A stretch of 63,942 bases of DNA, filler included, from Chrysochromulina tobinii (taxonomy: Eukaryota), in NCBI GenBank assembly GCA_001275005.1. It is 5 parts of 5 records of this genome, joined end to end, with 100 filler letters (N's around TTAATTAATTAA, not from the genome) between each part and the next. Parts side by side here need not be neighbours in the genome. Positions count along the whole stretch, not along the records: positions 1 to 31,805 come from JWZX01001255.1; 4 more parts are not named here. One strand, 5' to 3'. Both the position numbers and the translations under genes were made by a program. How positions within the stretch are numbered: the stretch's first letter is position 1; each line of letters starts with the position of its first letter. The notes beneath the pieces were generated by a model. It was not told where the DNA came from, made no database searches, and saw only the letters and a program-made list of their open reading frames with translations. Shown in pieces: positions 6,867 through 61,600 of the stretch.

Positions 6867-8858
6867 ATGCTGTACACCGTCGCTGCCCTGGCTGCCCTGG
6901 CCGGTACGAGGTACCAGGTACCATTGGCGGCGCCTCCCGCCGAAGGCTTCCCCAACCCAAACGCCGGCAAGGTGAACGACAAGATTGAGCATTTCGTCGT
7001 GCTCATGATGGAGAACCGCACGCCCGATCACTTCTTCGCGTGCATGGGCCTGCCCAAGGGTGATTGGGTCAAGGAGGGCCACGTGATCCCGATGGATCCC
7101 AAGGACCCGTCCAAGGGTGGCGCGACCATCAAGTGCGGCGAGGCCGAGTATGCGTGCAAGTCGGGACCGGGCTACGACATGTTCGCGGGCAAGGTTGAGC
7201 CGGGCGGTGAAGACAACTTTTACCCGTACGGCGCGCAGTCGGACGACAACTCGTACGCTCACGGCGCACACGGCACGTCGATCCAGCTCTTTGGCAAGGA
7301 CGCGCTCCCCGTCAAGAAGAAGATTGCGGAGGCCTTCTCCATCTTCAACAACTACCATTCGGCCGTGCCGAGCTTCTCGATGCCCAACCACATCTGGGCA
7401 CAGTCGGCCACGTCGGCCGGCATCAACGACAACATCGACTACATCGAATGCGGTGGCATCGACCCGCTCTTTCCGCAGCGTACCATCTACGACAACATGG
7501 CCGAAGCAGGCGTGAGCTTTGGCCTCTATTGGAACTCGACGCCGCCCGATGCGTACATGGCGGGCGTGCTGCGGCACGCCGAGAAGAACTTCAAGACGTC
7601 GAAGACGTTCTTCAAAGAGGCGGCCGAGGGCACGCTGCCCAAGTTCAGCTACATCGTCTCCGGCTCCGATCCGCGCAACGGCCACCCAAACGACGACCAC
7701 CCCTGCCACGACGTCGCGCTGGGCGAGCGCAATGTGAAGGATCACTACGAGGCGCTGCGTGCAGGCCTGGGCTGGAACAAGACGCTCTTCCTCGTGACGT
7801 ACGACGATGCGGGCGGCTGGTACGGCTGAGCGCGGGCACATATGAGTGCCACCAAAGAGTGCCACTCAGATTGCCAATGGCTGCCACCGGTTGGCTCCCT
7901 GAGTGCCACCTGATCACCTGATTGCTTCCCTCATGTCAGGTACGACCACGTGGTGCCGCCCACGGAAGGCATTCCGCCTGACAACTCGTCGCACACGTTG
8001 CCGTACTCGCGCACGCACGGGTGCAAGAACAAGTTCGACTTCCGCCGCGTGGGCTCGCGCGTGGTCTCGTACCTCATGTCACCCTGGATCCCCGCGGGCG
8101 TCATTGAGGGGCCGCCCAAGCGGCCGGGCCCACTCAACACGGGACACACCGTGTGGGAGCATTCGGCCATCTCGGCGACCATCGTCGACCTCTTCGGCCT
8201 CCCCAAGTTCCTCACCATGCGCGACTCATGGGCTGGCTCATTCGCAGAGCTCCTCACCGAGACGAGTCCTCGCACCGACACACCCATGCACTTGCCCGAC
8301 GCGCCAGAGCCAACGTCCAAGGTGACCTACCACGGGTGCGGCACCGCCGCGGACATCACGCGGCGCCAGCGTAAGCACGTGAAGCTGTGGCAGACGCTCC
8401 TCGGCAACGAGCCGCCCGCGGGCTGGGAACAGATGGGCTTTGATGAGCTGCAGGTGCGGCTCGGCGAGTTGAGTGCCCCTGAGGGCCCCTGAGTGCGGCC
8501 TCTTGTTACACACATGTATGCGTGAGTCTGAGTTCACCGGATGGCCCTTGATGGCCCTTGATGGCTTCATCAGGTGTGGATCGACGAGCAGTACAGGATC
8601 TTCCGACGCGGAGAGGACACGAAGCGCGTGCCGCTGCCGTACACGGATGAGGATGAGATGGTGCAGATGGATGTGCATCCGCGCGCCATCGATCAGTTCG
8701 ACGACGACGACGACGCTGGCGACGAGGATGGCGACGACGACGGCGACGCGGATCACGATGGTGATCGTGCCCGCGACAGCGGCCTCCCTGGATCGACCGC
8801 GGACGGACCTTCCCACGCCACTTGCCACGTGCCCACCCCGGCGAACAAGCGGGACTAG
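6867..8858 (+). CDS. Secreted phosphoesterase / non-specific phospholipase C family protein; exons 6867-7819, 7940-8453, 8574-8858
   Basis: IEHFVVLMMENRTPDH, SAVPSFSMPNH, NDDHPCHDV, TYDDAGGW|YDHVVPP restored by splicing, GSRV..SPW, EHSAISAT; signal peptide. Confidence 0.9.
7820..7939 (+). other. GT-AG intron, 120 nt, with TGAGTGCC/TGATTGC-type repeats
   Basis: Removal restores GGWYDH; ends CCCTCATGTCAG; both junctions read GGTACG. Confidence 0.9.
8454..8573 (+). other. GT-AG intron, 120 nt; 5' end resembles the downstream exon
   Basis: CAG|GTGCGG...CTTCATCAG|GTGTGG; joins ELQ to VWIDEQY in frame. Confidence 0.8.
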
Positions 8859-20492: not shown

Positions 20493-21256
20493 TTTGAGCA
20501 CGGGCGCCGTCGGGTCTGGATAATGGATGTGAGCCTGGGCACAGGGCAGCCACGCCCACCCAACCGCCAACGTCAGGCGAGACCGGACGGCCCGACGGGA
20601 AACGGCGAAGCTCGGACGTCGGAGTGCGGAGTGCGAAAACCCTAGTCTGTGCGTCACGACCTAGAATTAAAATGTGCGTCACGACCGCCATCGGCACATC
20701 CACAATCATCCGATCCACCGCGTGGGCACAGCCGCGCGGCGGCCGGCGCCGGTACCGCGACATGCGATCCCCCAGGTGCGCCGTGCGCGGTGGGACCCGA
20801 GCCCGTGTCGTGCCCGCACGACACCCCTCTGGTGCGCGAACAGGCGAACAACGTCTCGACTCTCGCCTGTCGTCTCACACCCCGACAGTCGTCATCGGCG
20901 CATGGCATCCCGCCGCACACTCGACGACTCGAGCACGCCCGCGCCCACGCTTGTCGTCGTCGACGAACTCGATGGCCTCCCTGCCGTATAAGCTCCCTCC
21001 TGCGGCTGCGCTGTCACCATCACCAAACCGATCCAGCAGCTTCAATACATGCACGTCACTGACGTATGTGCGCTTTCTCGACTCCTTGTCGCACCAGCTT
21101 GCAAAGCCCTCGGACCAATTGGTAGTCTCGCACCCCACCCACTCCAAAGCGCCAAAGCGCCAAGATATTGGTCACGGCCCGCTCGTGTGCCCAAGGCTCA
21201 TGTTGGCCACGCTCCTGCGCCCACTGCTGCGGCCTGGGCTTGCGTACACGTGGCTC

Positions 21257-24084: not shown

Positions 24085-26491
24085 ATGGACGCCGCAAGGG
24101 AGGCGTGCGCGCGCTATGGCGGCGCGGCGCACGCCGTGGGAGTCTTAGACCCTGGCACGACGTCCTACGGCACCATGCCAGTGGCGGCGTACGAAGCTTC
24201 GGCACCGCCTGCCTACGAAGTGTCGGGGGCGCCCGCCTACGACGCCGCGGCCGCTGTGTACACGTCAAATGCGGCCATGTATGATGCCGAGGCGGCAGCT
24301 GCGTACGGAACCGCGTCCGCGTCCGCCGGCGTCCACGGCGCGGACGACTCACTCTTTGACGATACGGAGCTGAGGCAAGGCCGCAAGCCCAAGCTTCCGG
24401 GCGAGCCGGCCAAGCCTCGCACGGCGGCCATGTTCTACGCGGCGCACCGCAAGGAGGAGATGCGGCGAGAGGGTCACGGGTTCCAGATCTCCCTATTCAA
24501 CGCGCAGTGCCGCGAGGAGTGGCGCGCCATGTCCGATACGGCGAAGCAACCCTTTGAGTATCTCGAGCGCAACGACCGCGCGCGGTTCGAGGAGGAGGTG
24601 CAGCGCTGGCAGAGCATGCCACAGCCGCAGGCCGTGCCGGGCATCGACCCGTCGCGCTTCACCAAGTGCGGCCGTCTCAAGAAAGACCCGCAACGCCCGA
24701 AGCATCCGCACTCGGCGTACTTTTACTACATGGAGGCGCATCGGCAGACCGTGATGACCGAGTATGCGGGTGCGAGCGTGCCCGATATCACACGCATGCT
24801 CGCGACGCAGTGGAAGGCCCTCGGCGCCGAGCAGCGGGTGCCGTTCGAGCAGCTCGCCGTGCGCGACAAGGAGCGTTTCAACGCCGAGATGGAGCAGTGC
24901 GCTGATTGCCATCTGATTGCCATCTGATTGCCATCTGATTGCCATCTGATGAGCTCATCTCAGTTTGCCATCCTCGAATGGGCGCTGATGAGCGCGAATG
25001 ACCACGGATGACTGCTGACGGATGACCTCTGAGGACCTCCGACGGCCTCTGACGACCTCTGATCATCGCTTGAGTGCCTCCCTCATCAGGTACCAGCCGA
25101 GCTCCCTGATTGCCTCTGATTGCCTCTGATTGGGCCTGAGTGCCTCCCTCATCAGGTACCAGCCGAGCTCCCTGATTGCCTCTGATTGCCTCTGATTGGG
25201 CCTGAGTGCCCCCCTCATCAGGTACCAGCCGAGTGCTGAGTTCAGCGCCATGAAGGAGCAATACCATCATGCCAAGGAGCAGCGCAAGCAGGAGCGACAT
25301 GCGCATGCAAGCCCCGGCTTCGGCGCGGACGGCAGCTTTTCGGGCAGCAGTGCGGTCCACGCCACCTACTACGCGCACGACGCGGCGGCCGCGGAGGCCG
25401 CAGCTTCCCTCTCCCTAGTGCCGCTCGGCAAGACGCGAGATTCGTCACACCTGTATGCACAGCATGTGGACGCTGACGAACCCGAGGGCGATGCGGTGCT
25501 CCTCGTAACCACCATCGACGAGAATGCGGCCGCGGCCAGGGCGGCCGCCGCCGCCGCCGCCGCCGAAGGGCATCCGTACGGGCATGCGAACGGCTACGAG
25601 TACGAGCCCGATGAGCGAGAGCGGCGAAAGCGCGGCCGGCCGAAAGGCAGTAAGAACAAGCCCAAGGACCCGAACGCGCCCCTCAAGCCGAAGGCGCTCA
25701 TCGGGCCCGACGGCCAGCCGCTGCCCAAGCGCAAGCCGGGGCGGCCAAAGGGCTCCAAGTCTCGGCCAAAGGGGGATGGGGCCGACGGGGGCGCCGTGGT
25801 GAGCGCCCTTGGGCCCGAGTGCGCGGCGGCGGCGGCGCTCACCACGGCGCTCACGCAGCCCTTCCCAGGCGCGTACGCGAGCGCCGTGGCGAGCGGGTAC
25901 GCGAGCGGGTACGCGAGCGGGTACGGTGGCAGCTACTCGGCCACGTATGCAAGCGGCGGGTACGGGGGCTTCGCCCAGACCGGAGGTGCGACCTCCGCAG
26001 CCGCCGACGCCGATGGCAACGGAGACGCCGCGCACTTGTTGAGCTCGTTTGGAGGCGCCAGCAACGGCGGGTACGGGTATGTGGCCGCTCCGCCGACGAC
26101 GGAAGCCCCCGCCTACGCTCCGCCTTCGTCCTCCTCGGTCGCCTCCTCGGTCGCCCGCATCATGAGGACCGTCGGCGTCGGCGGCGGCGGCGGCGGCGAC
26201 GGCGCCGGCGCCGGTGGAAGTGGCGGCGGCGGCGGTGGTAGTAGCGGCGGACGAGGTGGCTACAGCAGTACGGTTGCCGCTGGCGGCGGCGGCGGCAGCG
26301 GCGGCTTTGTAACCTCAAGTGGCGGCATGCTGATGGTGTGTGACGATGTAGGGCGCGCCACAGCGGCCCCGTCGGCCGGCCTGCCCGCGCGGGCGCCGCC
26401 GCCCACCACGGCGCCTCGGCATGATCCTCATGATGATGAAGCAGCTGCTCACTCACTCTCCTCGCTGTACGGGTTCCTCCAAGGCGACTGA
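24085..26491 (+). CDS. Protein with two HMG boxes and AT-hook-like motifs; exons 24085-24896, 25222-26491
   Basis: PAKPRTAAMFY...EWRAMS..KQPFE and KDPQRPKHPHSAYFYY...WKAL...DKERFNAEMEQ|YQP; KRGRPK and KPGRPK motifs in exon 2. Confidence 0.88.
24897..25221 (+). other. 325-nt GT-AG intron containing (GCCATCTGATT)4 and a 66-bp tandem triplication of the acceptor/exon junction
   Basis: CTCATCAG|GTACCAGCCGAG at 25089/25090, 25155/25156 and 25221/25222; only the last gives an open frame. Confidence 0.85.
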
Positions 26492-28525: not shown

Positions 28526-29063
28526 CCTCTTATCGATGGAGGGGCATTGGAACATGGGGGACAATCCACTAGGGCTAGAGCTCACGGAGGCTGCGGAGGG
28601 GGGGTCGCGCTGCCTTATTGCAGAGGTCGATGCCCGGGTGGGCGGGAGCGAGAAGAGCGCTCATGGCTGGAGCTCACGGAGGCTGCGGTGCGACTGGACA
28701 TTCGTGCACGGCCCTGTCGCCTGGCTGTGTAGTGTGTAGAGGAAACGCTCAGCAACCCTCGTGCGGGTCGCGGAGCCGAGTTGGTGCTTCGTATGTGGAG
28801 AAGGAATAAAGCGTCTAGGCAGTAAGGAGAAAAAGTTTCCGTTCCCCAGCGTGCAGCGAGCGCCCAACTAGTTATGTGACGGCATTCGCTATTATTCTAT
28901 ATTCATATCTAGTCATGTGACGTGTGAAACTCTGATCTCTAGCCATCAATCTCCTGTGCACTGCTGTGGCAGCTTGCACTGACCTGTCGTAGCTGCCATG
29001 AAGTATAGAAGCCACAAGCCTGAGCTCCCGTGTGACCCTCGAGCATGCCCTCGAGATGCGATC

Positions 29064-31758
29064 TCATGCTGGGAAAATGGCGGCCGTAGTTGCCGTGTGG
29101 AACTTCATCAGGGGCGAGCTGGGGGGCGAGCCCGCCGCCTTGCTGGTCGGGGAGCCAGTCGGCCTGACGCCGAGGCCGACTGGCACGTGTGGTGGCATCT
29201 TGATAGGGGCGCCTAAGCCGCCTGGGCTTGGCGGGTGGGCGTCGTGGTGGGCGTTGGCGGAGGGCGTAGGGGCGTCAGTGACGCCCGTCGGCTGCGGCGG
29301 CGGCAGTGGACCGAAAAGTGTCGCGTTCACGTTCACAGCCACCATCGCGACGCCCTTGAGCTTGCTCGCGCTGCCCAGCACGACGCGCGTGATGCGGTTC
29401 GAGATGGCGAGATGGTTGAGCGACACCGCGGCGGCAGCTTCGGGCGCGCTCGGCGCGATCGCCCCTTGGTCCCACGCAGCGTCTGCAGCAGCATGTACGC
29501 TGTCAATCCTCTCGCCCACCGCGGCGCTCCTCTCGCCCACCACGGCGCTCCTCTCGCCCACCACGGCGCTCCTCTCGGCCTCCGCCGCCGCGGCCGCCCA
29601 AGCACGCCACGCCGTCCCGGGCGCCCTCGCTGGCGGGTCTACGTGGCCAAGGAGCTCGAGCAGCGCGGCCGCCTGCGCGCGCAGCCAGCCGACACGCCCA
29701 TACGCGAGCGTGACGAGCGGATCGGCGCAGTTGGACTGCAGGAGCACCCGCCGCGCCGCCGTGCTCCGTGCGAGGGCGCTGAGCGCGGCGAGGGCGCCGC
29801 CTTGGGCATCGGCAGAGCGAGAGAGGAGCGAGACGAGCGGCGGCACGGCCCCTGCCGTCAGCAGCGCCCTGCGTTGTGGTTCGTCCGTGCTCGCGACAGC
29901 GCCCAGCAAAGCGGCCGCATGCCGGTGCGACAGCGCGGCGCGCTCTGTGCCGAGCATGGCGACCACGTGGCTCAGGCAGCCTGGCTGGCTTAGGGCGGCG
30001 AGGACGCTGGCGTCGTGTTGGCGAGCGAGTTCGACGAGCACCGCCGCAGCCGCCTGCTGCGCCGCCTCGACGGGCGCCGGCGGCGCCGGCGGCAGCACGG
30101 GTGGCGAGGCAGCCACTGCCTCCTTGCCGCCCGTGGCATCGGCCAATGGCGCCGTCGCGGGCGCGGCGGCGGGTGGGATCCATTCGAGCATGCGCAGCAG
30201 GGGCGCGAGGCCACCTACCTTGAGGAGAGTCGCCGGCGCACCGGCCGATCCGTTCACATTCACACCGGCCGATCCGATCAGGAAGCCCAGCAGCCGCGCA
30301 GCCTGCGTGCGCACCTGTGGGGAGAGAGGGCGCCGTGGTGAGCACATGCATGCAGGAAGCCCAGTAGCCGCGCAGCCTGCGTGCGCACCTGTAGTGCCTG
30401 CGCCACCGCCCACGGATCGTCCGCAGGGTCGGCTGCCTCACCCAAGACGTTGACGAGGTGCGATAGCGCGCCGTGGTGAGCTTCGAGGGCGGCGCAGACG
30501 CGTAGCGAGCTGGCGAGCGAGGCGAGCGAGCCAACGGCTGCGGCGCGCGCCGAGCCGAGCGCCGAGCCGAGCATGTGCGCGAGCGGCGCCCCCGCCCCCG
30601 CCAGCACGCACGCATCTCGACGCTCGGGACGGCGCGAGAGTACCGCGAGCAGCTGGGCGGCCTCCTCGGCCTCGCGGGTGTGAATGTGAACGTGGCCCAA
30701 CAGCCCAATGAGGGCCGGTAGAGTTTCGTCCAATTGAGCGAGCGCCTCGAGCTCAGCGTCGGAGCGGGCGGCAATGCTCGCGAGGGTCTGGATCGCGGCG
30801 AGCGGCGCATGCACTCCGTAAGGGACCCGGCCGGTGGCGCCCACGACGGCGCTCAGCAGCGCCTTTCGGTGGCTTGCATGTGCGCCTTCGCAGAGCATGC
30901 CCAGCACGGCGCTCGCGTGCTTGCGGCATGTCTCGACGGGTGCACCGAGCAGGCGCACAAGCGGCGCAATGGCGCCCGTCTCGAGGCAAGCGCGCTGGTT
31001 GGGCGTGCAGTCGCGGCAGAGCGCGGCCAGAGCGGTCACACCATCAGCCTGTAGCGCAGGACTGCTCGCCGAGAGCATGCCCACGAGGTGCTCGAACGCG
31101 CCCGAGACGGCGCCAATGGCGAGCTGGTTCTCAAGATCGGCAGCAAGGGCAGTGAGCGCTCGCGTCGCATGCTGCGTGCACGCCGGTGGCATCGACGGCC
31201 TGAGCAGAGCGACAAGCGGCGTGAGGCCGCCCTCGACAGCCACCAGGGTCTGGTTGAGCGAGTGGCCCTGGGCCAGCGCACCGAGTGCGGCTGCTGCCCA
31301 TGAGCGCGCACTCTCCGCCGGCCGGCCGCCGGCCTCCACACTCGCCAGCATGGCGACGAGGTGGCCGATGGCGCCCTCCTCGCTGATCGTCGTCTGCATC
31401 TCGCGAGATCGAGCGAGATCGCACAGGGCGCGCGCAGCCACCTCGGCGCCCTCGGCCACCAGCGTCACCTTGTCGCCACTCGAAGCGTGGCTCGCGCCCT
31501 GGGCGAGGGTGCCGTCCGTCGCATGCAACATCTCAATCAGCGCGCCAACCGTACCCGCATTGCATAGCAGTGCGTGAATGCCGCCCTCCGCCCCGCGCGC
31601 CGGTCGAGATATGTGCGATCGCAGTCGCCGCATGCCGCCGGGTCGTCCCACGTGCAGAGCGCAGCAGCGCCACGAGCGGCCCGATGCCACCCGCACGGAC
31701 GACGAGAGTCGCGCCGCTCGCGTGGTTCGACTCGCCTTGCACCCCCGCGGCGGCGGCA

Positions 31759-31805
<47 letters not shown>
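29064..31805 (-). CDS. Armadillo-repeat protein, 5'-truncated by the gap; intron 30315-30388; apparent frameshift near 31590
   Basis: Repeated GAI/GGLxPLVxLL ARM signatures across ORFs 31533-31742, 30278-31696 and 29064-30413. Confidence 0.85.
30315..30388 (-). other. 74-nt GT-AG intron = 36-nt copy of the downstream exon + 38-nt CATGCATGTGCTCACCACGGCGCCCTCTCTCCCCACAG module
   Basis: Direct repeats 30279-30318 and 30353-30392 (39/40 identical); removal joins two ARM ORFs in frame (ALQ|VRTQAARLLG). Confidence 0.9.
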
Positions 31806-31905
31806 NNNNNNNNNNNNNNNNNNNNNNNNNNNNNNNNNNNNNNNNNNNNTTAATTAATTAANNNNNNNNNNNNNNNNNNNNNNNNNNNNNNNNNNNNNNN
31901 NNNNN
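31806..31905. other. Synthetic contig linker N44-TTAATTAATTAA-N44
   Basis: Identical 100-nt spacer, with stops in all six frames, occurs four times. Confidence 0.98.
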
Positions 31906-34107: not shown

Positions 34108-34743
34108 TCACACCGACACCCCCATACTGCGAGCACCAAGTAAGAACGTCATCCAAAAAGCGTTGTCGCCCAACGGTGCACGATGCTGCAGTCTGCGCTC
34201 GCGAAGTACGTTTCCAAATCCCTCAGCAGCGGATGCTCGGATGAGGCGATTGATCTCGTCTGCTTCGGTTGGGTGTCTGCCCGTCTTATTTGTGGAGCGG
34301 CTTGCTTCACCTGTGGCTTGCAACTTCGAAGTATTCCGTTTGTGAATCGATTTGCGAAGTGTCTCAAGATCAGACTCCCTCTCCTCATCCTGCGCGAAGA
34401 GCTCAGCCATTTCGATTTCGGCTGCTAACCTGGCGTGGAGTTCAGCATCTAAACGCCGAGCAAGCTCAATGTCAAGTTGTGCTTTAACGGATGCCTTCAT
34501 GCTCCGTCGCCAGCTCCGAGGTGCCGAATAGAGGACTTCGATAGAAGTGCGTTTGGCTTGCGGAGGCTGTCGCGAGGCCGACGGGAGTTGTACTTGGCGC
34601 GGCAACTCGAGGCTGCTCCTGCTACTCATACTCCCCCGAGCACGGAATTGTTGGGTCGGCATCTCGATGCTGGAGCTTCTGCTACTCATACTCCCCGAGG
34701 GGCGCATGCTCCATGAAAGCTTGTCACGCAATTTTTTGGACAT
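34108..34743 (-). CDS. Hypothetical protein with coiled-coil segment in a lower-GC region
   Basis: ORF with internal 60-bp-spaced duplication (GSMSSRSS x2) and helical ELARRLDAELHARLAAEIE; no family recognised. Confidence 0.4.
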   Translation of the reverse strand: MSKKLRDKLSWSMRPSGSMSSRSSSIEMPTQQFRARGSMSSRSSLELPRQVQLPSASRQPPQAKRTSIEVLYSAPRSWRRSMKASVKAQLDIELARRLDAELHARLAAEIEMAELFAQDEERESDLETLRKSIHKRNTSKLQATGEASRSTNKTGRHPTEADEINRLIRASAAEGFGNVLRERRLQHRAPLGDNAFWMTFLLGARSMGVSV

Positions 34744-42791: not shown

Positions 42792-44525
42792 ATGAAAGGT
42801 ATCTTTGCCAATGTAAACCGTCAAAAAGCGTCAATGGACTCGGACCTCTCCCGCTCCGTCTGGCACACGGCATGTGACCACATCTTCTCCGAGCTGTGCG
42901 AGAGCCGCGGCGTGGCGGTGCCCGATCTGGGAACCTTCTCGATCGACGTGATCACGACCTTCCACGGCACACAGGGCACACGGATTGAGAGGCGCCCAAG
43001 CCTGACACTCTCGGCCAACTTTGAGAAACTCGGCGTGCGCCTGCCGGCGGCACGTCCAGCGGCCGGTGGAACGCGTCTCATCGGCTGGCAGCAGATCGCC
43101 CTGAAATGCGGCGAGGCTGTCGACCGGGATCTGGCGCGGCGCTTGGTCGCCTCCTTGCTCGCCGGGTTTGCGAGCCAGGTGGCTGCAATGGCCGCGTCCG
43201 GCGCGCGATCGAGCTCAAGCCTCGACCTCGGCCGCTGCGGCACGTTGCGGATTGTGCGCTGCGGCGAGCCGAGCCGGCCTCGCTGGCGAGAGCCACGTGT
43301 GCAGTTTTCGTCGGAGCTGCTCGACGCCGTTCGACGCGGCGGCGGACCGCACGCCACATCCTCGGGTGTTGCGGCGGCGGTGGAACCACGCCGTGTTGCG
43401 CTTGGCCTCGCCTCCTCTGGTCGACCGCTACGTAGCGAGCGAGAAAACGACGAGGCCGACGACGAGCGAGGCGGCGTTATCGGCGACGGAGCGGACGCCG
43501 CCGCTGACGATGAGGGTGGCAGCTCTTTCATCTCTCTGGAACGTCTGAGCCGACTCATGGCGCTCGGTGGCACCGCATGGGCTGAGACGGTCCAGGCGGC
43601 CGCACCACCCGACGCGCGTGCAGCACAGCTCGCCCCGGAGCCGCCAGATGTGGGCGAGGCCGCAGCGCTCGCGGCGCTGGCCGCGTCGGATGAAGCGCTC
43701 GCTACCGAGAAAGTCGCCGCCGCCGGCACCGCCATCCTCGTTGACAAAGTTGCCAACCTCCAAACTGCGCGCCCGTTCTCAGCCGCCGGCAGGTTGCGCC
43801 TGCCGTTAGACGCGTTGCCGCGGGCGCCACCCGAAGCGGACGAATGGGCCGTGTACAAGAACATGAGCGCATGGCACTACGAGGTGCCGACATGGCTGTT
43901 GCCTACCGCTGAGCGGCGCCAACGTGCGCTGCTCGATGAAGACAACCTACGCGCCGCACGCCTCCGTCGCGCCTTCAGCGCCAAGGCGACCGCCCGCGGA
44001 GCGCCAGGGGCGCCCGTGCGTCACTCGGGCGAACGCGCGGAGGCGGGAGTGCTGACGCTTCTTCGTCGTCTCTCGCCTCGCATGCAAGTGCTCACCACGG
44101 CGCACCCCGGAGAAGAAACGCTTCGTCGTCGTCTCCCGACCCCATCCGGCCTGGCGGCCGAGGCACCGTCGGGCAAAGGCGCCGCCACACGTGCGGGCGT
44201 CACACGTGCGGGCACGGCGCGCGAGAAGCCACGCGAGCCTGACTCGACGCACGATGACGAGCCGTTGGACGAGACGCCCCTCACGTCGGAGGTGCGAGCT
44301 CTGCTCGAGCAGAAGCACGTGCTCGAGGCGAGGCTGCTCACGCTCGAGCTGCAGCTCGTCGAGACGGCGAGTGTGCACTCCCGAGCCTCTACCCGAGCGC
44401 CGTCCCGAGCATCTGCGCGAGCGTCCGTCGCCTCTGCCCGCTCGTCGAGGGCGACGGCACGCCGCTCGGAGGCTGCGAGCATGCATGCGTGCATGCGCCT
44501 TTCGCAGGCTTCGAGCATTGCATGA
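42792..44525 (+). CDS. Protein with CCDC81-like HU/IHF-fold N-terminal domains
   Basis: VWHTACDHIFSELCESRGVAVPDLGTFSI and IALKC...LDLGRCGTLRI resemble the two CCDC81 HU domains; C-terminal coiled coil; gene model uncertain. Confidence 0.55.
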   Translation: MKGIFANVNRQKASMDSDLSRSVWHTACDHIFSELCESRGVAVPDLGTFSIDVITTFHGTQGTRIERRPSLTLSANFEKLGVRLPAARPAAGGTRLIGWQQIALKCGEAVDRDLARRLVASLLAGFASQVAAMAASGARSSSSLDLGRCGTLRIVRCGEPSRPRWREPRVQFSSELLDAVRRGGGPHATSSGVAAAVEPRRVALGLASSGRPLRSERENDEADDERGGVIGDGADAAADDEGGSSFISLERLSRLMALGGTAWAETVQAAAPPDARAAQLAPEPPDVGEAAALAALAASDEALATEKVAAAGTAILVDKVANLQTARPFSAAGRLRLPLDALPRAPPEADEWAVYKNMSAWHYEVPTWLLPTAERRQRALLDEDNLRAARLRRAFSAKATARGAPGAPVRHSGERAEAGVLTLLRRLSPRMQVLTTAHPGEETLRRRLPTPSGLAAEAPSGKGAATRAGVTRAGTAREKPREPDSTHDDEPLDETPLTSEVRALLEQKHVLEARLLTLELQLVETASVHSRASTRAPSRASARASVASARSSRATARRSEAASMHACMRLSQASSIA

Positions 44526-50768: not shown

Positions 50769-53035
50769 TCACGAGGCGTCGCACTTGCAGGGCACAAGGC
50801 CACAGGGGATGACGACTGTATGGATGGCTTTCCACTCGAGCACGTCGCTCACCCAGCCGACGCCGTCGCAGCCGACCGTGTATTGCACCTCCTTAGACTT
50901 GAAGACGCCCGGGTTGAGCGAGCCCTGGCCCTTGGCGAGCTCGTCGTAGATGAGCACGCCCGCGCCGCCCGCGTAGTTGGGCACCGCTGTTACCTCATCG
51001 CTGGTCAGGACGAAGACGAGGCTGTTCGGCGTCGAGGTCGCATTCACAGGCGTGACAAACGCGGCGACGTTCTCGCAGTACTTGCTGGAGCTGAGGGTGC
51101 AGCTCACGACGCTCTGTTCGAGTAGTCTCGATCCGCGTGGGAGGAAGCGCGAAAAGTGCGCCATGTGGAAGTAGGAGGGGTTCTGGAGCAGCGTGCTTGC
51201 GTCCTTCACGAGTATGGGTGCGTCCACCTTGTTCCCGCTGTGGTTGGGCCCTCCAGAGAGGTCGAGCGCCATGTTCCAGTCGACCCATCCGGTCGCGCCA
51301 TTCTTGAGCTGCCACATGATGTCATGGCTGTACGCGTAGCTGCGAGAGACGCGAGTCGCACCATCAGTGGTCATCAGTGGTCATCAGAAACGCGAGTCGC
51401 ACCGAGACGTATTGGCTCGATTGCAGGCTCACTCAGCCGAGGAGGCCTTGGAGCATGGCGCGAAGAGGCGGTGTGAAGAGGCGGTGTGAAGAGGCGGTCA
51501 CGGGCATCGGGACGTTGGGATGTGGCCACGGGCATGATCGGGTTCGATGCCCGAGCCACGCGCCCATAGCCCCAGTCTCCGGCCCGCGGGCCCACCATCG
51601 ACGTTCCCAGTGCGAAGCCGTTGCATGCCTCCGTCATCAGAAAAAACTTGTCCGGGTGCTGCGCGCCAACCGTGCGCACCTGCGCGCCGCCGCCGACGGC
51701 TGGGATGTTGAGCCACTCCGAGACAGGGCCGAGCGCGGGGCCACCCGCATCGTTCTCATAAAGGCCCTCGAAGTGCGTGTACCAGTGATAGGCCACACCG
51801 TCGACATACTGGCTCGCTTCGGGGTCATTGAGCACTCGGTTGGCAAAGTTGGTCAGCTCGTTGGTCGCGTCGTCGTGGACCATGATCTTGACGTTCGGGT
51901 ACGCCTTGCGCAGCGCTGGGCCGAGCGCATTTTTGACGAAGCTCGCCTGCAGTTCCGGCGTGAAGAACATGCCGTTCCACAGCCCTGTCTGCGTGAGCGG
52001 CTCGTTCTGCACCGTCAAACCCCACATCGGGATGCCAAGGTCCGCGTACGCGTCCAGGAATCGCACGTACAGGTCGGCCCACGCCTGCTGCTTGCTCACA
52101 TTCCCGGAGAGCATACCTGTGTTGTAGCAGTTGCCGTCCGCATTATGTCGGAGCAGGCCCTCGGCCCACGCCTCCGTGTCATGGCCGCGTCCCGGCCCGA
52201 CGTACTGCGGGTCGTTGAAGACGCTCCCATCGGACTGCGGGCATCGCGAACCGATCGTATTGTCGTTGCAAGGGGTGACGACGGTCGCCGTGCACTCGAC
52301 GAGCGGCGGCGCCGACGCGTTGGCATGGCAGCGGGCCAGCCCGTCGGCTGCCGAACAGCTCATCCACTGGTCCTTCATCCAGATGGGGGGAGACCACGCA
52401 CTGGTGAACAGCCGGAGCGCCGGTTGCGAGTTGGCCCGCAGCGCCGCCTGCGCCGCGAGGATCGGTTTCGTCTTGTAGTCCGTGCCACACGCCACCGGGG
52501 CCGCGCTGTCGTCGCGCAGGCAGAAGCTTGTCAGCTCGAGGTCGTCGGTGCGGTTGAGAAGCACATAGTCCATACGGGAGAAGTCGGAGGCACCCATGGG
52601 CACGCGTCCCATCGTGTAGCCGAGGCCGGTGGCTCCAAAGTGCGCCTCAATGAATGTGTCGCGCGTCGCTTCGTCGAGCCGATCAAAATTGTAGGCCATC
52701 GCATCGGTGAAGGCACCACCAAAGCCGTCCAATGGGAAGAAGCTTCCGAGGCCGTTGGCACGAATGGTCATTGTGGCATTTGACACGGCGTCGAGCTCCT
52801 GAAGCCGCTCGCGCACTTGCGATATTTTCCTCTTCTCGATCATGAAGAAGCCGCGCGCGAAAACGCTCTTCACCACCAGCGCCACACCCTCTGGCGACGC
52901 AAATGAGCCGCATGATCCTGCTCTGCACTCGCAAGCGTACCCGTAGCTGACATTCACCGGATGAGGGCACGCGGCCGTCGGTTGAAAAGACGCATGTTCG
53001 ATGGCGCTCACGCCCGCGAGCAGCGTGTGGAGCAT
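50769..53035 (-). CDS. Glycoside hydrolase family 30 (glucosylceramidase-like); exons 53035-51564, 51339-50769
   Basis: GFGGAFTDA, RVPMGASDFS, SAWSPPIWMK, acid/base VQNEP, nucleophile MTEAC, GWVDWNMALD..GGPN, MAHFSRF; GC-AG intron 51340-51563 restores WGYGYAYSHDI. Confidence 0.92.
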
Positions 53036-53136: not shown

Positions 53137-53236
53137 NNNNNNNNNNNNNNNNNNNNNNNNNNNNNNNNNNNNNNNNNNNNTTAATTAATTAANNNNNNNN
53201 NNNNNNNNNNNNNNNNNNNNNNNNNNNNNNNNNNNN
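53137..53236. other. Synthetic contig linker
   Basis: N44-TTAATTAATTAA-N44. Confidence 0.98.
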
Positions 53237-56431: not shown

Positions 56432-56531
56432 NNNNNNNNNNNNNNNNNNNNNNNNNNNNNNNNNNNNNNNNNNNNTTAATTAATTAANNNNNNNNNNNNN
56501 NNNNNNNNNNNNNNNNNNNNNNNNNNNNNNN
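56432..56531. other. Synthetic contig linker
   Basis: N44-TTAATTAATTAA-N44. Confidence 0.98.
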
Positions 56532-60884: not shown

Positions 60885-61500
60885 GGCGATCATGAACGCG
60901 GTTGTGGATACCGCGCGCGGCAGGCGGGCTAACACCCTCGAGGCGAAGGTCGCCGATCTCACGGAGCAGATCGCCCAACATCTCACGTCGCACGGCAGCT
61001 TCGACCTTTGTGCTGGTGCGGAGCGTCCGAGCGACGTGAGCAGGAGCAGGCACAACATCACGGTGCACCGTTTTGATTTGTGTACCGAGCGTGCGCTCTG
61101 TAGTGCTGTGTACCGACGCGAGCTTTGTGTACGAGCTCAGAAGATGTACTACAGTAATGAAAGTCATTCGAATCTGCGGCGGAGGACAACAACAACAACC
61201 GGCCGAGAGATGGAACGGTGTCTCGGACGAGAGTGTCTCGACTGACGACTGTGTAGTTCTTGTACGCGGCGCACAGGCTGCTCGTCGGATGCTATTTATA
61301 AATAAAAGTAACTTTATTTATCACGCACCGCACGAAGTCACTCTGCATGCGAGTGCTCACCACAGTGCCCTCGGTAACGGTACTCTCACGAGCGGGCGCA
61401 GGCGTCGTGCTGGGCGTGCCCTCAGTACCGGTACGCTCACGAGGGCGCCTGACGCCACGATCAGGCGTCGTGCTGGGTGTTGTGCTCGGCGGCTGGCTGC

Positions 61501-61600
61501 NNNNNNNNNNNNNNNNNNNNNNNNNNNNNNNNNNNNNNNNNNNNTTAATTAATTAANNNNNNNNNNNNNNNNNNNNNNNNNNNNNNNNNNNNNNNNNNNN
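61501..61600. other. Synthetic contig linker
   Basis: N44-TTAATTAATTAA-N44. Confidence 0.98.

What the first reader, a model, noticed from the sequence alone, without database searches (positions are those of the whole stretch)
30279..30392. Intron caught at birth: 40-bp exon duplication plus a portable 3' splice-site module
Seen: on the minus strand, the 74-nt intron 30388-30315 begins with a copy of the first 36 nt of the downstream exon. Direct repeats 30353-30392 and 30279-30318 are 39/40 identical and span CAG|GT. The intron ends with a 38-nt module, CATGCATGTGCTCACCACGGCGCCCTCTCTCCCCACAG (CTCAC branch-point-like, pyrimidine tract, CAG). Splicing restores the ARM frame exactly. Established: tandem duplication of an AGGT proto-splice site and introner transposons are both proposed intron-gain routes, and described introners usually carry short target-site duplications. 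Inference: this is a hybrid mechanism in which the duplicated exon donates the GT and a dispersed module donates the branch point and AG. The 40-bp duplication would fit an insertion by target-primed reverse transcription or by repair at a staggered break.
Basis: partly seen in the sequence, partly recalled or inferred. Interest (0 to 1): 0.9.

Follow-up and report, generated by a model that had tools for sequence, protein, structure and literature searches.

The report
Exon-copy intron with shared splice tail
A gene of a haptophyte alga carries a 74-base intron, cut out of its RNA, whose front half is a copy of the next exon and whose back half is a short sequence shared with other genes; it likely arose when DNA repair pasted in that shared piece, a route to new introns that standard searches would likely miss.

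Summary
The repeats are 39/40 identical, DNA contigs join both copies to the module, and contigs of 2 of 4 RNA runs skip exactly the 74 nt, a third in part. The gene is an ARM-repeat gene of Chrysochromulina tobinii.

The 38-nt 3' module is highly repeated. It ends 4 of 4 distinct metagenome loci at AG|GT, with exon-start copies of 6, about 15, 25 and 36 nt.

'Caught at birth' is too strong. All 9 other same-species records that reach the site carry the intron, and a sister orthologue (87-90% identical) has a 66-nt version. Only a distant orthologue reads straight through. At another site of this gene, two 99%-identical alleles differ by such an insert, so the process looks recent.

Best reading: a duplication with a templated filler copied from existing introns, likely by break repair (0.45). 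Rivals are reverse transcription of excised introns (0.25) and a remodelled older intron (0.2). A published introner screen scored this species zero. This scan noted the same footprint earlier on other DNA of this genome (e1-2577349).

The parts
30389..31804 (-). Upstream exon of the ARM-repeat gene, ending CAG at a codon boundary (phase 0); the gene runs on into an assembly gap at about 31806
   Evidence: orthologues P0187 and P0002 extend further upstream
30353..30388 (-). 5' half of the intron: copy of the first 36 nt of exon 2 (35/36), supplying the GT donor
   Evidence: RNA carries the exon-2 base at the one difference
30315..30352 (-). 3' half of the intron: 38-nt repeated module with CTCAC (candidate branch A at 30339), pyrimidine tract and CAG acceptor
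30389..30392 (-). ACAG at the exon-1 end, identical to the module's last 4 nt (microhomology that lengthens the repeat to 40)
29064..30314 (-). Downstream exon; its first 36 nt (30314-30279) are the template of the intron's 5' half
30239..30276 (-). In-frame 24-nt insertion in exon 2: 14-nt duplication plus 10-nt filler, no module; absent from sister orthologue P0187 and from P0002
30468..30481 (-). Exact 14-nt match to the module core inside exon 1, 138 nt upstream; role unknown
24897..25221 (+). Related case: spliced intron of an HMG-box gene whose 3' end holds three copies of a second module type, each followed by the same 12-nt exon start
   Evidence: RNA contig 18 of X13 joins 24896 to 25222
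44055..44138 (+). Related case: 3'-cut module core inside an open frame, between imperfect repeats (18/20) 63 nt apart; splicing untested

Best explanation
This is a spliced, young but established intron that likely arose in one insertion: 36-40 bases of exon were duplicated and a filler, likely copied during break repair from one of the many introns ending in the same module, was placed between the copies. Inferred steps: (1) a strand end 36 nt into the future exon 2 switches template to a module copy elsewhere; (2) it copies to the module's CAG|GT end; (3) that end pairs back with the look-alike ACAG|GT in the target exon and synthesis resumes, duplicating the 36 nt. Re-entry at CAG|GT makes the first copy a donor and the module an acceptor, so splicing removes exactly what was added (shown). 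Each new intron would be a new template, so the module would spread without a transposase. Selection would keep only sense, acceptor-complete or in-frame products in exons.
For: Anatomy and exact splicing. Exon-start copies differ in length among 4 distinct loci: 36 (here), 25 (L005/L009), about 15 with 1 mismatch (L012, inside a compound intron), 6 with 1 mismatch and a GC donor (L004/L007/L010). All 4 modules are followed by GT although the search pattern ended at CAG; so is L016. Distant orthologue P0002 has one copy, no break. P0159 and P0187 are 344/347 identical up to a site where P0159 has a repeated exon start plus module peptide and P0187 and P0002 read straight on. Module-free duplication-plus-filler events: 7 in the window versus 0-1 in 30 simulations, one 36 nt downstream of the intron and absent from the sister orthologue. 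Module cores cut at the 3' end occur (44055-44138; RNA contigs, table 5c), which fits exit from a DNA template at any point. Short duplications from ectopic donors are a described outcome of break repair (PMC7407515, passages).
Against: No donor copy was identified and no whole genome was available. No empty allele of this very site was seen at DNA level; polarity rests on one distant orthologue whose DNA I could not read. A fixed 3' end with variable 5' extent (module part 38-67 nt) is also the classic mark of reverse transcription. Only 4 distinct loci were read as DNA, and 1 of them (L004) has no long duplication. The P0159/P0187 comparison is at protein level only. The 44055 copy could be a decayed intron rather than a 3'-cut insert.
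Confidence: 0.45

Rival explanations
1. Reverse transcription of excised introns. A host LINE-type enzyme would prime on the CAG 3' end of a debranched intron RNA at a nicked CAG site, copy part of it, and close the insertion with a long, variable target-site duplication.
For: The fixed end is exactly the intron's 3' end; the 5' extent varies; duplication lengths vary; 2-4 bases before the junction match the module end at 4 of 4 loci. Module-bearing RNA contigs are common in the RNA runs. Non-LTR elements make up about 5% of classified introners (PMC12130899 section 6).
Against: No poly(A) or repeat tail; 3'-cut cores exist; the same duplication-plus-filler pattern occurs without the module. 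Copies run 13-42 nt past the candidate branch point, which needs debranching first (inference). No reverse-transcriptase family among 51 long ORFs of the window, which says little about the genome. A 36-40 bp duplication is long for LINE-type insertion (recalled, not tested).
Confidence: 0.25
2. An older intron was remodelled. Its 3' junction (module plus exon start) was duplicated and the original 5' part later lost, or a spliced cDNA overwrote the 5' part in an unfinished intron loss. No new intron position would have been made by this event.
For: The intron at 24897-25221 looks like the intermediate: old 5' part, then module plus 12-nt exon start repeated. L012 is compound too. The sister orthologue has the same position with a different length.
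Against: P0002 reads through both this site and the P0159 site; P0187 lacks the P0159 insert at 99% identity. The sister intron follows from the same ancestor by one 9-nt deletion, 1 substitution in the copy, and at least 3 substitutions and a 1-nt insertion in the module, so no rewriting is needed. Two steps are needed instead of one.
Confidence: 0.2
3. A conventional DNA-transposon introner (MITE) that carries the acceptor and takes the donor from its target-site duplication.
For: Same division of labour as Symbiodinium introners and Polarella classes 4, 5, 6, 8, 10; other Chrysochromulina genomes have introners.
Against: Those classes have fixed 3-8 nt duplications; here lengths run 6-36. 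The 5' boundary varies and no terminal inverted repeat is visible in the four aligned copies.
Confidence: 0.05

Closest known systems
Intron gain by tandem genomic duplication of an AGGT-bearing exon segment (review PMC3443670, passages)
   Same: The duplicated AG|GT supplies the donor and splicing restores the coding sequence exactly.
   Different: In that model the intron is all exon copy. Here half the intron is a foreign module shared between genes that brings the branch-point-like motif, pyrimidine tract and acceptor.
Introners that carry the 3' splice site and take the 5' site from the target duplication: Symbiodinium; Polarella glacialis classes 4, 5, 6, 8, 10 (10.1101/2020.10.14.339549, parts 1-2 of 4; 10.1101/2022.06.06.494994, passages)
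   Same: A repeated sequence supplies the acceptor; the duplicated target supplies the donor; one orientation.
   Different: Their duplications are fixed at 4 or 8 nt and the whole intron is the element (the Symbiodinium ones have terminal inverted repeats). Here duplications are 6-36 nt, the 5' boundary varies, and no inverted ends are seen.
Introners of marine Chrysochromulina metagenome-assembled genomes (legend; table)
   Same: Same genus label; repeated intron families; the figured example has no inverted repeats.
   Different: The figured family has a 4-bp duplication, carries its 5' site and co-opts its 3' site, the reverse of this case. The module motifs were not found in the stored (cut) supplement.
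New introns from staggered double-strand-break repair in Daphnia pulex (PMC4202315, passages)
   Same: Insert flanked by a direct repeat shared with an adjacent exon; repeated events at one intron; many parallel gains.
   Different: Repeats there are 4-12 bp and the insert source is mostly unknown. Here repeats reach 40 bp and the insert is one recurring splice module.

Membership tests
Spliceosomal GT-AG intron | Removed from RNA at GT..AG | tested here: met
   Joint in contigs of 2 of 4 RNA runs, partial in a third, no cover in the fourth
Spliceosomal GT-AG intron | Branch point used | not testable with these tools
   CTCAC with A at -25 is a candidate only
Introner (repeated intron-making element) | Many similar copies at unrelated loci | tested here: met
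   4 distinct loci among 9 hits; summed depth 7019 versus about 40
Introner (repeated intron-making element) | Similarity spans the intron from boundary to boundary (criterion) | tested here: not met
   Only the 3' 38 nt or so are shared; 5' parts are locus-specific
Introner (repeated intron-making element) | Empty site in a relative | tested here: inconclusive
   Protein level only: P0002 empty here; P0187 empty at the P0159 site; P0187 filled here
DNA-transposon (MITE) introner | Fixed-length target-site duplication | tested here: not met
   6, about 15, 25 and 36 nt at 4 loci
DNA-transposon (MITE) introner | Terminal inverted repeats | tested here: not met
   None visible by eye in the four 3'-aligned copies; no dedicated inverted-repeat search of them was run
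Non-LTR retro-insertion (SINE/LINE type) | Variable duplication, fixed 3' end, variable 5' end | tested here: met
   on 4 loci; 3'-cut cores also exist
Non-LTR retro-insertion (SINE/LINE type) | Poly(A) or tandem-repeat tail; structural-RNA head | tested here: not met
   Module ends in CAG; no Rfam family over the intron, one chance-level match elsewhere
Non-LTR retro-insertion (SINE/LINE type) | Partner LINE in the genome sharing the 3' end | not testable with these tools
   No genome held; none among 51 window ORFs
Pure tandem-duplication intron | Intron consists wholly of exon copy | tested here: not met
   38 of 74 nt are module

The most novel reading that the evidence does not exclude
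A self-spreading half-intron. Only the 3' splice module is inherited between loci; the 5' half is made fresh from each target. Pairing of the module's CAG|GT end with exonic CAG|GT aims it at proto-splice sites, so products are frame-neutral by construction and each becomes a new template. It needs no transposase or element ends, may account for hundreds to thousands of introns in this alga, is still active, and escapes whole-intron similarity screens. In its boldest form the template is excised intron RNA.
Probability: 0.35. Interest if true: 0.85.

Novelty: new variant of a known kind. Interest (0 to 1): 0.62.

Why it matters
Where new introns get their sequence, and why they sit at AG|GT proto-splice sites, are long-open questions. 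Here both sources can be read in one 74-nt intron of a cultured alga with a published genome, and RNA confirms the splice. A screen of thousands of genomes lists zero introner families for this species (PMC12130899 supplement file 7). The earlier screen asked for similarity near both intron ends, which an intron with a locus-specific 5' half would likely fail. So this route may be undercounted elsewhere. A census of one genome can tell DNA repair from reverse transcription.

Tried and rejected
Misassembly: rejected. Chance repeat: rejected. Single-copy module: rejected. Whole-genome census: no genome held and metagenome contigs could not be opened further. Prokaryote genomes: 0 hits with two patterns. 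Viral contigs: 3 hits in coding sequence unrelated to the module, 4 of 5 hits were proviral chance matches and 1 (L016) a true module cut by the contig end, 0 hits for the second module type. Closer orthologues with an empty site: three protein searches and one HMMER scan gave only same-species records, P0002, P0159 and generic ARM proteins; P0187 came from a cluster look-up. RNA contigs cannot give splicing efficiency or strand. Rfam: nothing over the intron. A module copy in X15/X16 matches up to 8 nt further into the end of the duplication with 1 mismatch somewhere in 33 nt; too weak to name a donor. Loose ends showing GTGCG after other copies are biased by laying on this window and were not counted. 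Paper searches; none listed a paper on this module, and the motif itself had 0 hits. Most subscription papers are not in the library; bioRxiv supplements were not seen; 2 of 14 supplement files of PMC12130899 were not searched; the PMC9860276 supplement was cut when stored.

Full report
What is there. On the minus strand an ARM-repeat gene (Pfam Arm on both sides) is interrupted at a codon boundary by 74 nt, 30388-30315. The first 36 nt copy the first 36 nt of the next exon with one difference (30365 versus 30291). With the four bases ACAG shared by the exon-1 end and the intron end, the repeat is 39/40. In 30 simulated windows the best comparable repeat was 14-19 nt. The last 38 nt are a module with CTCAC (A at -25), a pyrimidine tract and CAG. 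A cluster member identical to exon 1 over 381 of 381 residues is named Chrysochromulina tobinii by its sources and is annotated with this junction spliced (P0179).

It is real and spliced. In DNA run X8, unbroken contigs cover 29548-30339 and 30327-31700 at depth 38-41, so each copy is joined to the module and no fork for an empty allele shows (X8 may be a source of the window). I laid 6 of the 6 listed RNA runs over two calls. In one search, contigs of X11 (depth 7.15, shorter side 115) and X16 (6.39, side 94) skip exactly 74 nt with GT..AG ends; X14 has a 10-nt exon-1 overhang; X15 does not cover the junction. In one search, X12 had a contig ending at 30366, next to the diagnostic base, and X13 showed no junction row in a table that was cut.

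The module is dispersed. Its 14-nt core occurs 5 times exactly in the window against at most 0.012 expected; with up to 3 mismatches the 16-mer has 20 matches against 2.8. Summed DNA depth in the bin holding it is 7019 against about 40 for single-copy contigs, with loose ends at 30309-30319 and 30353. The tool warns this is no copy number, so 'hundreds or more' is inference. One metagenome scan gave 9 loci, which are 4 distinct genes. All 4 have GT after the module. Splicing from an upstream GT or GC restores an open frame in each (no RNA test for the three others). The intron start copies the exon start over 36 nt here, 25 nt in L005/L009 and 6 nt with 1 mismatch in L004/L007/L010. L012 is a compound 210-nt intron with a 14/15 copy just before the module; part of that match may be module sequence.

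It is young but not newborn. L006 and L008 differ from the window at 2 of 1430 bases, L011 at 10 of 731, and all carry the intron. Six of six unannotated same-species proteins that reach the site read through copy and module (P0001, P0048, P0178, P0180, P0181, P0182); five of them show one changed residue in the copy. The sister orthologue P0187 (368/409 and 349/401 identical) has a 22-residue insert at the same place, a 66-nt in-frame version. One 9-nt deletion, at least 4 substitutions and a 1-nt insertion link the two, so shared descent is simplest; a second insertion at the same site is not excluded. The distant orthologue P0002 (46% and 44%) has a single copy in one 1552-residue frame from a 12.4-kb contig.

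The process looks recent elsewhere in the same gene. P0159 and P0187 are 344/347 identical, then P0159 repeats the start of the next segment around a peptide that matches the module's second frame, while P0187 and P0002 read straight on. This is the best empty-site evidence I have, at protein level only.

Mechanism. Duplication plus filler is common here without the module: 7 events in the window against 0-1 in 30 simulations (17 array intervals were left out first, and the focal repeat itself did not pass that script's filters). One lies 36 nt into exon 2 and is absent from P0187 and P0002; P0187 has its own in-frame insert between repeated residues. Module cores cut before the acceptor also occur, one between 18/20 repeats in an open frame at 44055-44138 and others in RNA contigs. 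A second module type shows serial events at one junction, 24897-25221, spliced in X13. I therefore favour templated insertion during break repair, with re-entry at CAG|GT microhomology (0.45; all steps inferred). Reverse transcription primed on the 3' end of excised introns fits the fixed 3' end equally well and stays a serious rival (0.25). Remodelling of an older intron is suggested by the compound cases (0.2). A fixed-duplication DNA transposon is unlikely (0.05). That the intron was gained by duplication plus module, whichever enzyme did it, I put at about 0.75.

Comparison with the literature. Tandem duplication, break repair and intron transposition are reviewed in PMC3443670 (passages). 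Daphnia neointrons share 4-12 bp repeats with an adjacent exon (PMC4202315, passages). Polarella and Symbiodinium introners that carry the acceptor have fixed 4 or 8 nt duplications (10.1101/2020.10.14.339549, parts 1-2 of 4). The figured Chrysochromulina introner has a 4-bp duplication and the opposite polarity, and that screen required similarity near both intron ends (10.1101/2022.06.06.494994, passages). C. tobinii was in the 2022 input list (PMC9860276 supplement rows) and has 0 families in the 2025 table (PMC12130899 supplement row; section 6 and passages read). Break repair giving short duplications from ectopic donors is described in PMC7407515 (passages). PMC4580454 (passages) gives about one intron per gene; PMC8469720 (passages) added nothing. 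Nine searches listed no paper on this module; the library lacks most subscription papers. Typical LINE duplication lengths are recalled, not checked.

Earlier notes of this scan. e1-2577349 reports a 66-nt intron with a 15-nt repeat on another piece of this genome and more than a hundred relatives in lake metagenomes. It pointed me to the Polarella paper. I could not check its count or whether its module is the same one.

Verdict. A confirmed, spliced intron of a hybrid build that known introner classes do not match on duplication length or whole-intron similarity. It works like an acceptor-carrying introner but is not a member by the published criterion. New variant of a known kind; interest 0.62.

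Noticed in passing
window 24897-25221 (+): HMG-box gene intron, spliced in one RNA contig, with an 11-nt satellite at the 5' end and three copies of a second acceptor module, each followed by the same 12-nt exon start; each inner junction looks like AG|GT and could allow stepwise splicing.
   Followed up: partly
window 44055-44138 (+): Module core without acceptor, in frame inside an ORF with a CCDC81 HU domain, between imperfect repeats 63 nt apart; possibly translated.
   Followed up: partly
window 30468-30481 (-): Exon 1 holds an exact 14-nt match to the module core; the sister orthologue keeps the same residues, the distant one does not.
   Followed up: partly
window 61399-61477 (+): 16-nt direct repeat starting CAG|GC, 63 nt apart, with CTGAC in the spacer and a partial module just upstream (61353); candidate GC-AG intron of the same build next to an assembly gap.
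   Followed up: partly
window 25791-25850: Two module-core matches in opposite orientation about 30 nt apart.
   Followed up: no
window about 7820-7940 (+): Candidate 120-nt intron in a phosphoesterase gene: starts with the same 5 nt as the next exon and ends in a variant of the second module type.
   Followed up: partly
window 34619-34696, 51349-51403, 28573-28688, 20648-20686: Further direct repeats of 14-24 nt around unrelated or satellite-like fillers.
   Followed up: partly
window 30591 and 30596: The window differs from L006, L008, L011 and from contigs of X8, X11 and X13 at these two bases; possibly errors or private variants of this assembly.
   Followed up: partly
window about 31806-31905, 53137-53236, 56432-56531, 61501-61600: N runs around a TTAATTAATTA linker: the window is several contigs joined, so neighbours across them need not be adjacent.
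   Followed up: no
L012 521-730 (+): Compound intron in a likely glycoside hydrolase gene (family guessed from the peptide, not tested) holding two copies of the exon-1 end, three of the exon-2 start, and satellites.
   Followed up: partly
P0031, P0033, P0034, P0035 N-termini: Other ARM proteins from metagenomes start with module-like peptides read through an intron end, so gene callers likely mis-annotate these introns.
   Followed up: no
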